Source of the DNA: a virus
Taxonomy: Duplodnaviria > Heunggongvirae > Uroviricota > Caudoviricetes
IMG/VR virus record: IMGVR_UViG_2695420889_000011
Coordinates: 1 to 11,785 of that record
Length of the DNA: 11,785 nt
Strand: one strand, 5' to 3'
The position numbers and the translations under genes are program-made. The notes under the pieces were generated by a model. The model saw nothing but the letters and a program-made list of their open reading frames with translations. It was not told the origin of the DNA and made no database searches. Shown here piece by piece: positions 1,183-4,426 of the stretch; position 1 is the first letter of the stretch, and every line of letters begins with the position of its first letter.

Positions 1183-1821
1183 ATGGTTACTAAGAACACG
1201 GAAAATAACGCTAATAATGCACTGAACATTCTTCCCGAATCAGCAAGCACAGCTGTAGACAACGATGAAAAATATCTGTCCTTTGCATTAGTTCTCGCTA
1301 TCACGATTATGGGCAACTTAGTAAAGCTCATCGGCACAGATGGCTTCATACTTTATACCTACACCCTGCAGGACACGGCTACTGCTCGTGCTGTTTTTAA
1401 TGAATTAGCCAGGCGTCTCAAAAATTTCAATCGTCAGGAGGAGGTCTACACCACCGATTCCCTCACCTTTCGAATGAAATACATTTACGGTGTTACCCTG
1501 TTCGAACATGATAGTAAATCTATCCTTAACCTTTTTGATAAGAAGGGTTATCCAGTATTGAGTGAATCAGGAGAACCCGGTTCTCTTGATGATATGTATC
1601 TTGACATTCAAGCCCGATTACATGGCGGCTACGCCTCAAAAAAGTTTCTTCATTTACATGAACATTGTCTGTTATCTGCACACGTTACCCCGTCTGTGGA
1701 AAAGACGCAACGTGGTATCCTGATTAAAGCAGGCAGGAAACTCGTTTCCTTTATCTATGCAGATAATGAATCTCGCAAAAATGATATTTTCAAAGCTGTA
1801 GTAGACGTCATTAAATCCTGA
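1183..1821 (+). CDS. Hypothetical protein (212 aa), unknown function, immediately upstream of the polymerase gene
   Basis: Intact ORF with SD-like AGGTGA 6 nt upstream of the ATG. AT-rich codon composition matching the downstream polymerase gene. No recognisable motif. Confidence 0.55.
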   Translation: MVTKNTENNANNALNILPESASTAVDNDEKYLSFALVLAITIMGNLVKLIGTDGFILYTYTLQDTATARAVFNELARRLKNFNRQEEVYTTDSLTFRMKYIYGVTLFEHDSKSILNLFDKKGYPVLSESGEPGSLDDMYLDIQARLHGGYASKKFLHLHEHCLLSAHVTPSVEKTQRGILIKAGRKLVSFIYADNESRKNDIFKAVVDVIKS

Positions 1822-1829
1822 TTCATTAT

Positions 1830-1859
1830 GCCGGGGGGGACGAACTCCCGGCATTTTTT
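1830..1859 (+). terminator. Rho-independent terminator-like hairpin between the 212-aa gene and the polymerase gene
   Basis: GCCGGGGG / CTCCCGGC stem (1830-1837 with 1845-1852) with a short loop, followed by ATTTTTT (1853-1859). Sits 9 nt after the upstream stop and 11 nt before the polymerase ATG. Confidence 0.5.
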
Positions 1860-1870
1860 CGGAGTTAACT

Positions 1871-4426
1871 ATGAGCAATAATTTGCAGGACATCCTCGCT
1901 GCCGCATCGGGGTATCAGTCCGTGACTTCAGAGCCAGCGCTCAATCTTAAAAGACCTAAAACGCTTGATGATTATCCTGTGATACCACCTGCATCAAAAA
2001 AAGTATCTGTTATTTCAAGTGACCTGACACTCCATATCGGTTTTGATACCGAATATGTTTTCAATCCTGAAACACAACAGAATGATATTCTGTCATATCA
2101 GAGTTATGTTGTCTTACCCGATAATACAGGTATATCGAACATTATCTATCCACCTGACTCACAGAAAAAATCCCGGCTGTCTTTTAAGAACTTTCTCTGT
2201 CAAACGATTACACCGCTTCTTGAAACGGGTGTGATTACAAAATGGCCCGGTATTATTAATATATATGCGCATTTCATTCGTGCGGATATCACCTCCTTTG
2301 CCAATTTCTGGTCAGACTACAAAATTCTTCTGAAAGGAATACGCGGTACTGTCAGCAGCTTCAAAAATCGTTACGGTATCGATTTTGATGAACAGCAGGA
2401 ACGTCGCGTAAAGACTGAACAGATAATGTTTGACAAACGAACTTCCCCTCCGCGTTGCAGTAACGTAGCTTTCATCGATACACTGCTTATCACTCCCGGG
2501 GGTATGGGTCTGGCTGAATGTGGTGAATTACTGGGTCTTCCCAAACTGACCATTCCTGCACCTTATTCCATAACCAATATGCGTGAATATCTTCTGGGCG
2601 ACAGAGCAGGGTTTGAAGCCTATGCTCTGCGGGATGCCGAGATTGCGGTTCGTTATGCTTTACAGGTTCGCAATTTTTGCGCCCGGGAGCTGATGATTGA
2701 TCGTGTCCCCGCCACCATCGGGGCGATGGCAGTTTCACGGTTCACCAAAACACTTAAAGAAAACAATATGTCTCCTGAAGTCTGCCTTGGGACACACATT
2801 AAAACCCGTGAACTCTGGCTCACGGAGAAACAGGCATTCCGGACGATTAAAAACCCCGCCAGTGTTCCTTCAAGAGAGCTGTTTGAAACGTTCCCGATCA
2901 ACTGTTACCACGGCGGACGCAATGAGTGTTTTATGATGGGGGTTACACCGTCTGATCACTGGTATGACTACGATCTGGCTGGAGCGTATACCACCGGGCT
3001 ATTAGATATCCTCATACCCGATTACGGAAACATCCGCCTCAGTAAAAATCCGGACGATTACTGTGGGCATGTAATGGGATTTGCGTTTGTCACATTTCAG
3101 TTCCCGGAATCAGTTCCCTATCCCAGCCTGCCGGTTCGGACCGATCAATATGGGTTATTCTTTCCATTAAGTGGCGAATCATGGGCAACGGCACCTGAAA
3201 TCGAACTTGCTCTGTCGCTCGGGGCAGAGATGACGATCCATAATGGGATCATCGTCCCCTGGATCTGTGACACCTCCCCACATAACAGCGAATCAACATC
3301 GGTGTTTCTTCCCTTTGTTCAACAGGTCCGTGAGAACCGTAATCGCCATATTAAAGGTTCTCTGGAGGAGAAATTCTGGAAAGAAATTGGCAACTCGCTT
3401 TATGGCAAACTTGCTCAGGGCCTTCGCGCCAAAACCGCCTTTGATACTGCCCGTGGATTAAACAGATCCCTCCCACCATCATCGGTTACTCAGCCATTCT
3501 TTGCTGCGCATGTGACGGGATTTATCCGCGCCGTTGTCGGGGAACTCATGAATGCTTTGCCTTCTGATTCATCGGTTGTCAGCGTCACAACCGATGGCTT
3601 TTTGACAAATTGCCCACTTAACAAGATAAACATGAGCGGTCCACTGTCTTCCCGCTTCCAGTCGCTGTGCGATATTGTTGATCCGGGTTCATCAATGTTG
3701 ACATGTAAGCATGAGGTCAGCCAGCTTATCGCCATGAAAACCCGGGGGCAGTTAACCTATAGAGCTATTCAGGGAAAACCTGTTGTTCATGCCAGGGCTG
3801 GCGTCAAACCTCCTGCCGATATTCCACGCAGTGACTATAACGACTATATGGTAGATCTTTACCTTAATCGTTTACCCGGTCAGACGTTATCCCGAAGTAC
3901 GTTGATATCAACGCGTGAGATGTGGCTGTCGGAAAGCGATCTGGTATCCCGGGAACAGGATATCCGTCTTAATCTGGAATTCGATTTCAAACGCCAGCCC
4001 GTACAGCCCGCCATGAATGAAGGGCATTTACTGATGTCTTCCCGCCCATGGGATAATATGGAAGAGGCTCTGCAGCAACGCTCTCTTTTCGACGACTGGC
4101 GGCAAACGCATACACTGAAGACCCTGGCTGACTGGGATGACTGGTGTGATTTTCTCTATTGCCGGACGGTGTTTTCTGATATGAAACTAAAAGTCGGAAG
4201 CAAACGTAGTGATGATATTTTAGTCAGACTATTTCTCCGGGCGCTGACTCAGTGCCAATGGGGGCTTATGCTGAAAGATAAAAAAAGTTATTCCTGTAAA
4301 GAGGTTGCTGAATGGCTGACGTCAGAAGGCTATTCAGTAACATGTCAAAAAGCACCTGCTGGATCTCCCGGGCCCGAAGGTCGCAGTAACGTATCTTCCC
4401 CAGACGAGGTTCAATGTATTGCGTGA
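1871..4426 (+). CDS. Family B DNA polymerase with 3'-5' exonuclease domain, piPolB-like (primer-independent PolB of pipolin-type elements)
   Basis: 851-aa ORF with SD GGAG 7 nt upstream. Ordered motifs: Exo I HIGFDTEY (D59, E61), Exo III-like YALRD (251-255), motif A-like DYDLAGAYTT (366-375), motif B KEIGNSLYGK (504-513, matching Kx3NSxYG), motif C-like VTTDGF (572-577), KTRG (623-626). The PolB call is strong; the piPolB subgroup assignment is from genomic context (recombinases, tRNA-derived att repeat) and memory. Confidence 0.8.
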   Translation: MSNNLQDILAAASGYQSVTSEPALNLKRPKTLDDYPVIPPASKKVSVISSDLTLHIGFDTEYVFNPETQQNDILSYQSYVVLPDNTGISNIIYPPDSQKKSRLSFKNFLCQTITPLLETGVITKWPGIINIYAHFIRADITSFANFWSDYKILLKGIRGTVSSFKNRYGIDFDEQQERRVKTEQIMFDKRTSPPRCSNVAFIDTLLITPGGMGLAECGELLGLPKLTIPAPYSITNMREYLLGDRAGFEAYALRDAEIAVRYALQVRNFCARELMIDRVPATIGAMAVSRFTKTLKENNMSPEVCLGTHIKTRELWLTEKQAFRTIKNPASVPSRELFETFPINCYHGGRNECFMMGVTPSDHWYDYDLAGAYTTGLLDILIPDYGNIRLSKNPDDYCGHVMGFAFVTFQFPESVPYPSLPVRTDQYGLFFPLSGESWATAPEIELALSLGAEMTIHNGIIVPWICDTSPHNSESTSVFLPFVQQVRENRNRHIKGSLEEKFWKEIGNSLYGKLAQGLRAKTAFDTARGLNRSLPPSSVTQPFFAAHVTGFIRAVVGELMNALPSDSSVVSVTTDGFLTNCPLNKINMSGPLSSRFQSLCDIVDPGSSMLTCKHEVSQLIAMKTRGQLTYRAIQGKPVVHARAGVKPPADIPRSDYNDYMVDLYLNRLPGQTLSRSTLISTREMWLSESDLVSREQDIRLNLEFDFKRQPVQPAMNEGHLLMSSRPWDNMEEALQQRSLFDDWRQTHTLKTLADWDDWCDFLYCRTVFSDMKLKVGSKRSDDILVRLFLRALTQCQWGLMLKDKKSYSCKEVAEWLTSEGYSVTCQKAPAGSPGPEGRSNVSSPDEVQCIA

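What the first reader, a model, noticed from the sequence alone, without database searches (positions are those of the whole stretch)
1183..1882. Intrinsic terminator placed 11 bp before the polymerase start codon, after an unknown 212-aa gene
A GC-rich hairpin plus T-run (1830-1859) sits between the stop of the 212-aa gene and the polymerase SD and ATG (1861-1873), leaving no room for a promoter downstream of it. Polymerase expression therefore must depend on terminator read-through from the upstream gene's promoter, or the hairpin is a regulatory or processing site rather than a full terminator. The 212-aa protein has no recognisable motif and shares the AT-rich composition of the polymerase gene, making it a candidate functional partner.
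Basis: seen in the sequence. Interest (0 to 1): 0.45.

Follow-up and report, generated by a model that had tools for sequence, protein, structure and literature searches.

The report
Terminator hairpin before pipolin DNA polymerase
A strong RNA hairpin sits just before the DNA polymerase gene of an E. coli mobile element (a pipolin); it most likely limits how much polymerase is made relative to a strictly linked upstream gene of unknown function, which is an ordinary kind of gene control not yet described for these elements.

Summary
A 10-pair GC-rich hairpin (1828-1854) and a T6 run (1854-1859) lie 6 nt after the ORF212 stop (1819-1821) and 16 nt before the piPolB ATG (1871). No promoter fits downstream of it.

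The window is a decayed E. coli O145 pipolin. Homology to intact elements covers only 248-4341. An IS3 truncates the integrase. A 143-bp deletion removes the region upstream of the excisionase gene and its first five codons. The piPolB C-terminus is replaced.

All 35 fetched loci where sequence continues past ORF212, plus the window, show ORF212-hairpin-piPolB. About 280 of 5426 E. coli genomes carry the region.

Four diverged lineages keep a stem-loop at this position with different sequences: 93% of stem cells pair, with double-sided changes at five of eight positions. Only the E. coli-type lineage has the T-run.

Best reading: an intercistronic RNA stem-loop that lowers piPolB relative to ORF212. 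In E. coli it is a real intrinsic terminator. It lies so close to the stop codon that published data predict ribosomes on ORF212 would suppress it.

ORF212 is a real, fast-evolving orphan gene. Its confident model has three beta/alpha repeats, but function remains unresolved. This is a new member of a known kind, of modest interest.

The parts
1..247 (+). Right end of an IS3-family element, with the transposase CDS ending near 209. It interrupts the pipolin integrase.
   Evidence: Homology to intact pipolins starts at window 248. In L001, whose corresponding region (window 1-5376) is 99.8% identical to the window, an IS3 transposase is annotated up to the position equal to window 209. Window 1-249 also matches a second IS3 copy in L001.
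248..985 (+). 5'-truncated IntP2-type tyrosine recombinase gene. It is 376 aa in intact elements.
   Evidence: Pfam Phage_integrase, E = 3e-22. RefSeq annotates only 588 nt as 'site-specific integrase' in L001, against 1131 nt in ETEC H10407.
1007..1008 (.). Junction of a 143-bp deletion relative to intact pipolins. The deletion removes the integrase-excisionase spacer and the first five codons of the excisionase gene.
   Evidence: Pairwise alignment with ETEC H10407. Only the O145-type hits match the query as a single piece; most others need two pieces and are about 143 bp longer.
1008..1193 (+). Excisionase-like HTH_17 gene remnant with no start codon. Its stop TAA at 1191-1193 overlaps the ORF212 start by 11 nt.
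   Evidence: The translation matches Pfam HTH_17 positions 6-50 of 51 (E = 8e-6). The intact H10407 protein matches positions 1-50 (E = 6e-9). Frame deduced.
1183..1821 (+). ORF212, an orphan protein-coding gene always found directly upstream of this type of piPolB.
   Evidence: No family match. dN/dS is 0.28-0.48. The AF2 model has pLDDT 90.5 and shows three beta/alpha repeats. Synteny is seen in every locus examined.
1828..1854 (+). GC-rich stem-loop: 10 pairs including the two outer A-T pairs, GC core 1830-1852, loop 1838-1844.
   Evidence: A stem-loop at this position is kept, with covarying sequence, in four lineages.
1854..1859 (+). T6 run, the U-tract of the terminator. It is present only in the E. 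coli-type lineage.
   Evidence: The largest T count in an 8-nt window after the stem is 5-6 in lineage A and 2-3 in lineages B, C and D.
1861..1864 (+). Shine-Dalgarno GGAG of piPolB, 6 nt before the ATG.
   Evidence: Read. Identical in all lineage A sequences.
1871..4426 (+). piPolB gene (primer-independent family B DNA polymerase). It is 851 aa here against 866 aa in intact elements. Homology ends at 4341, and the last 43 residues are replaced by 28 unrelated ones.
   Evidence: The first 300 residues are 99% identical to ETEC H10407 piPolB, whose near-identical (99-100%) database relatives include proteins named 'Primer-independent DNA polymerase PolB'. Weak Pfam DNA_pol_B_2 match. C-terminal comparison.

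Best explanation
The hairpin is an RNA-level intercistronic element inside a co-directional excisionase-ORF212-piPolB transcription unit. Its role is to make less piPolB message than ORF212 message.

In the E. coli-type lineage, which includes this window, it has acquired a U-tract and is a genuine Rho-independent terminator. It starts only 6-8 nt after the ORF212 stop codon. A ribosome finishing ORF212 close behind RNA polymerase would therefore cover the 5' arm and prevent hairpin folding. Transcripts that are being translated would read through into piPolB, while untranslated or uncoupled transcripts would stop at about 1859. The device would be a leaky, translation-gated attenuator rather than a full stop.

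In lineages without a U-tract, the same stem-loop more likely acts as a 3'-end stabiliser or processing signal for the upstream message. The outcome is the same: upstream genes are expressed above polymerase.

Shown here: the structure, its position, its conservation with compensatory changes, the absence of a downstream promoter, and the strict gene linkage.

Inferred: that it acts in RNA, that termination is partial, and that ribosomes gate it.
For: - Canonical terminator anatomy in the window: 10 pairs with 7 G-C, loop of 7, T6 run, hairpin dG -18.5 kcal/mol.
- The intergenic sequence is present in 280 of 5426 complete E. coli genomes. Exact copies: 209 of the majority variant GCCGGGAcacagcTCCCGGC plus AT6, 18 of the window variant, and 23 of the H10407 variant.
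- Four lineages have ORF212 only 29-50% identical to the window's, and all keep a stem-loop between ORF212 and piPolB with different stem sequences. In my stem table 97 of 104 cells pair, against 40-48% when the 3' partner is slid. Double-sided changes occur at stem positions 3, 5, 6, 7 and 8.
- Most of these spacers fold significantly better than dinucleotide shuffles, with z from -2.4 to -5.3.
- The contrasting hairpin inside piPolB (3569-3597) is not conserved as a stem in other lineages.
- The genes are co-directional, and the excisionase and ORF212 overlap or abut in most loci.
- No promoter-like site lies between the hairpin and the ATG, and none lies on the + strand over 1-2298 at the tool's threshold.
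- Published E. coli measurements show that efficiency of terminator tR2 falls from about 90% to below 10% when the stop codon is 5 bp upstream. The effect depends on the ribosome and disappears beyond about 30 bp (PMC4824070). Here the distance is 6-8 nt.
- Precedents for intergenic terminators that set expression ratios: mccA-mccB (PMC4231749) and T1 between rpsU and dnaG (PMC7863352).
- Precedent for intergenic stem-loops that set stoichiometry by processing and stability: PMC10311766.
Against: - There are no transcript data at all. Neither 3' ends at about 1859 nor read-through RNA has been observed.
- The U-tract is missing in lineages B, C and D. Termination therefore cannot be the conserved function, and the explanation needs two mechanisms.
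- Two lineage B spacers do not fold better than shuffles (L006 z = +0.3, L009 z = -1.6). One E. coli genome (L010) carries a stem mismatch.
- My stem table is a manual alignment fitted to the hairpins, so the percentage paired is biased upward. Covariation between the two arms would equally be expected for a DNA palindrome that co-evolves with its binding protein.
- In this window the operon is degraded, so the element may no longer do anything here.
Confidence: 0.55

Rival explanations
1. The hairpin is an efficient, ordinary end-of-operon terminator. Transcription of integrase-excisionase-ORF212 ends here, and piPolB is essentially silent in the integrated state. It would be expressed only after some event that changes upstream transcription, such as an antitermination factor or excision.
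For: The predicted hairpin is strong and has a T6 run. Episomal pipolin copies were not detected in sequenced E. coli strains, which suggests the element is quiescent under standard growth (PMC7385651). No terminator-like site was flagged directly after piPolB in H10407, so this hairpin is the only strong intergenic terminator-like site on that strand in the block.
Against: The hairpin starts 6-8 nt after the stop codon. That is the range in which a translating ribosome almost abolishes termination in E. coli. The piPolB SD and ATG follow within 16 nt and are perfectly conserved. piPolB is under purifying selection, with dN/dS 0.16-0.28, so it must be expressed from somewhere, and there is no promoter of its own. 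Lineages C and D lack a U-tract yet keep the same gene order.
Confidence: 0.15
2. The stem-loop is purely an RNA stability or processing element in all lineages. It would be a 3' protective hairpin or an endonuclease signal, as in selective RNA processing and stabilisation. The T-run in E. coli-type elements would be incidental and would cause little termination.
For: The stem-loop is conserved in four lineages and the T-run in only one. Intergenic GC-rich stem-loops are known to control operon stoichiometry in this way (PMC10311766).
Against: In lineage A the T6 run is invariant across the variants fetched. It directly abuts the stem, which is exactly the terminator geometry. A hairpin of -15 to -18 kcal/mol followed by six U residues is expected to terminate E. 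coli RNA polymerase when it is free to fold.
Confidence: 0.15
3. The inverted repeat acts in DNA. It would be a palindromic binding site just upstream of piPolB for a dimeric protein, or a cis site for replication. The fast-evolving ORF212 may have a LytTR-like DNA-binding fold, and its evolution together with its site would produce the arm-to-arm covariation.
Confidence: 0.08
4. The hairpin is a chance or neutral feature with no function.
For: Terminator-like matches are common. The scan found 10 in 5.2 kb against 4.6 expected. An 11-pair hairpin inside piPolB turned out to be a by-product of the coding sequence.
Against: A stem-loop is kept at the same intergenic position in four lineages whose spacers cannot otherwise be aligned, with compensatory changes. 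Most fold with z between -2.4 and -5.3. The element is present in all 280 E. coli genomes that carry the spacer.
Confidence: 0.03

Closest known systems
Intra-operon intrinsic terminators that set expression ratios: T1 between rpsU and dnaG in the E. coli rpsU-dnaG-rpoD operon, and the mccA-mccB intergenic terminator of the microcin C operon
   Same: A Rho-independent terminator sits in the short spacer between two co-directional genes of one transcription unit, with no promoter after it. The downstream gene is made only by read-through and at a lower level. In rpsU-dnaG the downstream gene is likewise a replication enzyme, the primase. In mcc the ribosome on the upstream ORF controls the terminator (PMC7863352; PMC4231749).
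   Different: Nothing has been measured for the pipolin element. In mcc, ribosome binding induces termination, whereas the geometry here predicts ribosome-mediated suppression. In pipolins the U-tract is lineage-specific while the stem-loop is general.
Ribosome repression of terminators placed close to a stop codon (tR2 position series in E. coli, Li et al. 2016)
   Same: The distance from stop codon to hairpin is 6-8 nt. That lies in the range where tR2 efficiency dropped from about 90% to below 10% in a translation-dependent way (PMC4824070).
   Different: That system is a synthetic reporter with a different terminator, and its authors report that the distance effect depends on sequence. No such measurement exists for this spacer.
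Selective RNA processing and stabilisation by intergenic stem-loops (for example the cip-cel operon)
   Same: GC-rich stem-loops in intergenic regions of a polycistronic unit give the upstream and downstream segments different stability and so set stoichiometry (PMC10311766). This fits pipolin lineages B, C and D, which have a stem-loop but no U-tract.
   Different: The precedent is in a Gram-positive organism with different RNases. No cleavage sites or half-lives are known for pipolins.
Pipolins of Enterobacterales with the IntP2-excisionase-piPolB arrangement, including the truncated, IS-disrupted, prophage-associated subgroup (Mateo-Caceres et al. 2024)
   Same: The window has the IntP2-type integrase, excisionase, piPolB and insertion at the Leu-tRNA locus. 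It also has the IS insertion next to IntP2 and the deletion beyond piPolB that were described for a monophyletic truncated subgroup (PMC11551731).
   Different: The pipolin papers do not mention a terminator or an operon, nor a promoter of the pipolin genes. They do not single out the 212-aa gene beyond listing 'hypothetical' or 'orphan' core genes.

Membership tests
Rho-independent (intrinsic) transcription terminator | GC-rich stem-loop of about 5-15 pairs with a short loop | tested here: met
   10 pairs (7 G-C), loop of 7, dG -18.5 kcal/mol for the hairpin alone. z = -3.1 to -4.5 against shuffles.
Rho-independent (intrinsic) transcription terminator | U-rich tract immediately 3' of the stem | tested here: met
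   T6 at 1854-1859 in the window and in all lineage A sequences. Not met in lineages B (ATTTCCCC), C (CCCCCATGG) or D (CACCTGAATA): the largest T count in 8 nt is 2-3.
Rho-independent (intrinsic) transcription terminator | RNA 3' ends at the U-tract in vivo, or termination by purified RNA polymerase in vitro | not testable with these tools
   No transcript data are available. The pipolin papers contain no mention of terminators.
Intra-operon attenuator (read-through-dependent downstream gene) | Co-directional flanking genes with no promoter between the terminator and the downstream start | tested here: met
   Only 16 nt separate the stem end from the ATG, and these hold the SD. No + strand promoter-like site over 1-2298 at the tool's threshold. 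A laxer scan finds only weak sites (8 of 12 matches) upstream of or overlapping the hairpin. The one at 1802-1829 is not conserved in the majority variant.
Intra-operon attenuator (read-through-dependent downstream gene) | Both a short terminated transcript and a longer read-through transcript exist | not testable with these tools
   Needs a Northern blot, Term-seq or RNA-seq.
Conserved structured RNA element | Base pairs maintained by compensatory substitutions across homologous loci | tested here: met
   97 of 104 stem cells pair, against 40-48% with slid partners. Double-sided changes occur at positions 3, 5, 6, 7 and 8 of 8. Caveats: the alignment is manual and fitted to the structure. MAFFT alignments of the hairpins were unusable for the count of structure pairs. 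The same pattern would arise from a co-evolving DNA palindrome.
Any Rfam family | Covariance-model match at or above the gathering score | tested here: not met
   The best match is FinP at 16.7 bits, against a gathering score of 45 (E = 3.1).
Pipolin (piPolB-encoding integrative element) | Encodes a piPolB-type family B DNA polymerase | tested here: met
   The first 300 residues are 99% identical to ETEC H10407 piPolB, whose near-identical (99-100%) database relatives include proteins named 'Primer-independent DNA polymerase PolB'. Weak Pfam DNA_pol_B_2 match.
Pipolin (piPolB-encoding integrative element) | Tyrosine recombinase(s) and integration next to a tRNA gene | tested here: met
   An IntP2-type integrase remnant lies at 248-985. 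In L001, whose corresponding region (window 1-5376) is 99.8% identical to the window, the element lies beside tRNA-Leu/Cys/Gly. Direct repeats were not searched for.
LytTR DNA-binding domain (considered for ORF212) | Sequence match to the Pfam LytTR model, or strong fold match over the whole domain | tested here: inconclusive

The most novel reading that the evidence does not exclude
ORF212 is a dedicated nucleic-acid-binding accessory factor of piPolB, and the covarying intergenic hairpin or palindrome is its cis site. ORF212 has a confidently predicted fold of three beta/alpha repeats, is restricted to this pipolin lineage, evolves faster than the polymerase, and was never found apart from it. 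In this reading ORF212 binds the stem-loop, as RNA or as single- or double-stranded DNA, either to autoregulate polymerase production or to direct the otherwise sequence-independent primer-synthesising polymerase to a start site on the element.
Probability: 0.1. Interest if true: 0.65.

Novelty: new member of a known kind. Interest (0 to 1): 0.33.

Why it matters
Nothing is known about how pipolins control their unusual primer-independent DNA polymerase. The published surveys do not mention operons or terminators, nor promoters for these genes.

A conserved stem-loop directly in front of piPolB is the first concrete candidate for a control point. An orphan gene that never separates from piPolB is a concrete candidate partner protein. 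The stop-codon-to-terminator spacing gives a simple, testable prediction: polymerase expression should depend on translation of ORF212.

The mechanism itself is textbook, however, and this particular copy sits in a degraded element. The value therefore lies mainly in guiding experiments on intact pipolins.

Tried and rejected
- The piPolB homologue search returned only proteins 99-100% identical to the query in the listed top 120, so it gave no distant relatives.
The scan was then used with piPolB and gave only 11 loci, all Enterobacterales.
- Distant piPolBs (30-31% identity) from IMG/VR (L021-L023) have a different upstream organisation. No ORF of ORF212's size and orientation lies directly upstream of the polymerase, judged from ORF lists only without a homology search. 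They say nothing about the hairpin.
- The afdb50 fold library was not available.
- Two large proteins hit by the ORF212 profile (P0030, P0031) are highly repetitive and the hits are artefacts.
- MAFFT alignments of the hairpins shifted the 5' arms or introduced an indel, so one structure string could not describe all rows and the count of structure pairs could not be used. I counted pairs with a script on a manual alignment anchored at the stem base.
- A possible internal promoter (TAGACG-16-CATTAT at 1802-1829) would start transcription inside the 5' arm. I rejected it because it matches only 8 of 12 positions and its -10 hexamer is CTTTAT in the majority variant.
- A weak outer helix pairs the stop-codon region (UGAUUC) with the SD region (GAGUUA) in the minimum-energy fold of lineage A. 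It shows no covariation and is absent in other lineages, so I did not build on it.
- Rfam gave nothing above threshold.
- A literature search for the RefSeq protein accessions found nothing.
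Full report
**What the window is**

Positions 900-2400 are 100% identical to several E. coli O145 chromosomes and 95-99% identical to about 250 other complete E. coli genomes, always on the chromosome. In strain RM9154-C1, whose corresponding region (window 1-5376) is 99.8% identical to the window, the block lies beside tRNA-Leu/Cys/Gly. It is annotated IS3 transposase, site-specific integrase, hypothetical protein, DNA polymerase. The first 300 residues of the polymerase are 99% identical to the ETEC H10407 protein, and near-identical (99-100%) database relatives of that protein include ones named 'Primer-independent DNA polymerase PolB'.

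This is therefore an E. coli pipolin. Homology to an intact pipolin (ETEC H10407) covers only window 248-4341.
- Positions 1-247 are the end of an IS3 that truncates the IntP2-type integrase.
- From 4342 the polymerase loses its last 43 residues to 28 unrelated ones (851 aa against 866 aa).

This matches the truncated, IS-disrupted, prophage-associated subgroup described by Mateo-Caceres et al. (PMC11551731).

**Checking the observation**

- ORF212 stop TGA at 1819-1821;
- stem 1828-1854, with GC core 1830-1852 and loop GGACGAA;
- T6 run at 1854-1859;
- SD GGAG at 1861-1864;
- ATG at 1871.

It is the top terminator-like site in a scan of 1-5200 (10 pairs, 7 G-C). It folds far better than shuffled sequence: z = -3.1 with 0 of 200 shuffles as stable, and z = -4.5 with p about 0.002.

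Only 16 nt separate the stem from the ATG. No + strand promoter-like site was found over 1-2298. A laxer scan gives only weak sites, all upstream of or overlapping the hairpin, and the closest one is not conserved in the majority variant.

**What lies upstream**

The listed ORF 997-1182 is a chance frame. Alignment with H10407 shows the true gene is an HTH_17 excisionase-like gene whose stop (1191-1193) overlaps the ORF212 ATG by 11 nt. The window carries a 143-bp deletion at 1007/1008. It removes the whole integrase-excisionase spacer and the first five codons of that gene. The remnant matches HTH_17 positions 6-50 of 51.

The deletion appears limited to the O145-type genomes. These match as one piece, while the others need two pieces and are about 143 bp longer.

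The unit is therefore excisionase-ORF212-hairpin-piPolB. In this window its natural 5' region is gone. Any transcription here would have to come from the integrase remnant or the IS3. That last point is inference.

**ORF212**

ORF212 has no match in Pfam, NCBIfam, PHROGs, PADLOC or PDB sequences. The family is tiny. The word-indexed search of 5.8 billion proteins gave 15 hits. An exhaustive profile search of 1.84 billion representatives gave 20 hits, of which only about four are full-length clusters at 50% identity.

Every contig carrying a homologue shows integrase, HTH_17, ORF212 and a piPolB of 866-869 aa in that order. All 20 fetched loci with this piPolB type have ORF212 directly upstream. 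A group D E. coli strain does as well. So do all 15 metagenome loci that extend past the ORF212 stop.

In complete E. coli genomes ORF212 is found in 280. The piPolB 5' part is found in 296, of which 289 are at 95% identity or above.

ORF212 is a real gene under purifying selection, with dN/dS of 0.28-0.48. It evolves faster than piPolB, whose dN/dS is 0.16-0.28. Amino-acid identity is 29-50% against 52-68% in the same loci.

An AlphaFold2 model from eight sequences is confident (pLDDT 90.5, pTM 0.83). It shows three tandem repeats of five strands plus a helix. Fold searches give only weak leads:
- LytTR-type DNA-binding domains over about 100-135 residues, seen in PDB and again in viral models.

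Function is unresolved.

**The comparative result that changes the picture**

The ORF212-piPolB spacers fall into four groups.

| Group | Hosts or loci | Stem-loop | Sequence after the stem |
|---|---|---|---|
| A | E. coli, Citrobacter, Franconibacter, Intestinirhabdus | GCCGGG...CCCGGC | (A/G)TTTTTT, then GGAG |
| B | L006, L009, L037 | GCCGGGAG-ggtt-CTCCCGGC | ATTTCCCC |
| C | L003, L004 | GCGGGAGAG-gct-CTCTCCCGC | CCCCCATGG |
| D | Buttiauxella, Scandinavium, Enterobacter, one E. coli | (G)CGGTG(C/T)C...G(G/A)CACCG(C) | CACCTGAATAAGA |

Anchoring the stems at their base, 97 of 104 cells pair, against 40-48% when partners are slid. Positions 3, 5, 6, 7 and 8 show changes on both sides. The alignment is manual and fitted to the hairpins, which inflates the paired fraction. 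The repeated double-sided changes are the informative part.

Most spacers fold with z between -2.4 and -5.3. Two group B spacers do not. The T-run criterion of at least 5 T in 8 nt is met only in group A. The distance from stop codon to stem is 6-7 nt in A, 8 nt in B, and 13-17 nt in C and D.

Within E. coli the window's G-run variant is a minority. Among 280 genomes, 209 have the exact GCCGGGA-cacagc-TCCCGGC variant, 23 the H10407 variant and 18 the window variant.

**Interpretation**

The conserved object is a stem-loop at the ORF212-piPolB junction. In the E. coli-type lineage it additionally has the U-tract that makes it a canonical intrinsic terminator.

piPolB has no promoter of its own and is under purifying selection. 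The terminator must therefore be leaky or conditional. Experiments in E. coli show that a terminator placed about 5 bp after a stop codon is almost fully suppressed by the ribosome that translates the upstream gene, and that full efficiency returns only beyond about 30 bp (PMC4824070). The 6-8 nt spacing here falls in the suppressed range.

The most likely mechanism is thus a translation-gated attenuator. Coupled, translated transcripts continue into piPolB, and others end at the T-run. The net result is less polymerase message than ORF212 message.

Known parallels are T1 between rpsU and dnaG (PMC7863352) and the mccA-mccB terminator (PMC4231749). For lineages without a U-tract, the stabiliser or processing role known for intergenic stem-loops (PMC10311766) is the more natural reading.

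All of this is inference from anatomy, conservation and precedent. No transcript data exist. The pipolin literature does not mention terminators or operons, nor a promoter of the pipolin genes.

**Rivals**

- A fully efficient terminator with piPolB normally silent.
- A pure stability element, with the T-run incidental.
- A DNA palindrome bound by a co-evolving protein such as ORF212.
- Chance.

Chance is effectively excluded by the conservation. The DNA-site reading cannot be excluded by covariation alone. It is disfavoured by the short loops, the tolerated G-T pairs, the T-run, and the finding that piPolB needs no specific template sequence to start synthesis (PMC5695915).

**Verdict**

The kind of mechanism is well known, so this is a new member of a known kind and of modest interest. 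Its main worth is as a specific, testable handle on piPolB regulation and as a pointer to ORF212 as a candidate polymerase partner.

Noticed in passing
window 1007/1008 (against L002 4109-4251): A 143-bp deletion relative to intact pipolins removes the integrase-excisionase spacer and the first five codons of the excisionase-like HTH_17 gene. The gene is left without a start codon. The deletion seems confined to O145-type genomes.
   Followed up: yes
window 997-1182: The mechanically listed 61-aa GTG ORF is a chance open frame. The real excisionase-like reading frame is 1008-1193, one frame away, and it overlaps the ORF212 start by 11 nt.
   Followed up: yes
window 1-247 and 248-985: The end of an IS3-family element, co-directional with the pipolin genes, truncates the IntP2-type integrase. 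A second IS3 copy lies further downstream in strain RM9154-C1 but not in the window.
   Followed up: partly
window 4342-4844: Homology to intact pipolins stops at 4341. The last 43 residues of piPolB are replaced by 28 unrelated ones. A remnant of an Arm-DNA-binding integrase lies on the minus strand (annotated as a pseudogene in L001). The conserved pipolin core (WYL, DUF2787, IntSXT) is missing.
   Followed up: partly
window 3569-3597: A second terminator-like hairpin (11 pairs plus CTTTTT) lies inside piPolB. It encodes the conserved VVSVTTDGF polymerase motif. It is not kept as a stem in other lineages, so it is a by-product of the coding sequence.
   Followed up: yes
window 1183-1821 against 1871-4330, compared with L010, L011, L012, L019: Synonymous divergence of ORF212 is 3-4 times that of piPolB in the same genome pairs (for example dS 0.12 against 0.027). 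This suggests a recombination boundary near the hairpin and separate histories for the two genes.
   Followed up: partly
window 1833-1839: The G-run in the 5' arm and loop varies in length: G7 in the window, G8 in ETEC H10407, and G7 with the H10407-type loop in metagenome locus L025. The change alters loop size only. The majority E. coli variant has no G-run.
   Followed up: partly
window 1819-1824 with 1862-1867: In the minimum-energy fold of lineage A spacers, a weak outer helix pairs the ORF212 stop-codon region (UGAUUC) with the piPolB SD region (GAGUUA). This could couple translation of the two genes. It shows no covariation and is absent in other lineages.
   Followed up: partly
window 1183-1821 (protein model m41f517981dae): ORF212 is predicted with high confidence to consist of three tandem repeats of about 60 residues (five strands plus a helix). 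The repeats are not evident from the sequence. The best fold matches are PH-like and LytTR-like.
   Followed up: partly
window about 5600-11785: A prophage-like region follows: a tyrosine integrase with an Int_N domain (6039-7040, minus strand), a 216-aa protein weakly similar to Flk (7423-8073, minus), a cI/DicA-like HTH repressor (8089-8493, minus), and divergent small genes from 8569 on the plus strand. This fits the reported co-integration of prophages next to truncated pipolins.
   Followed up: no
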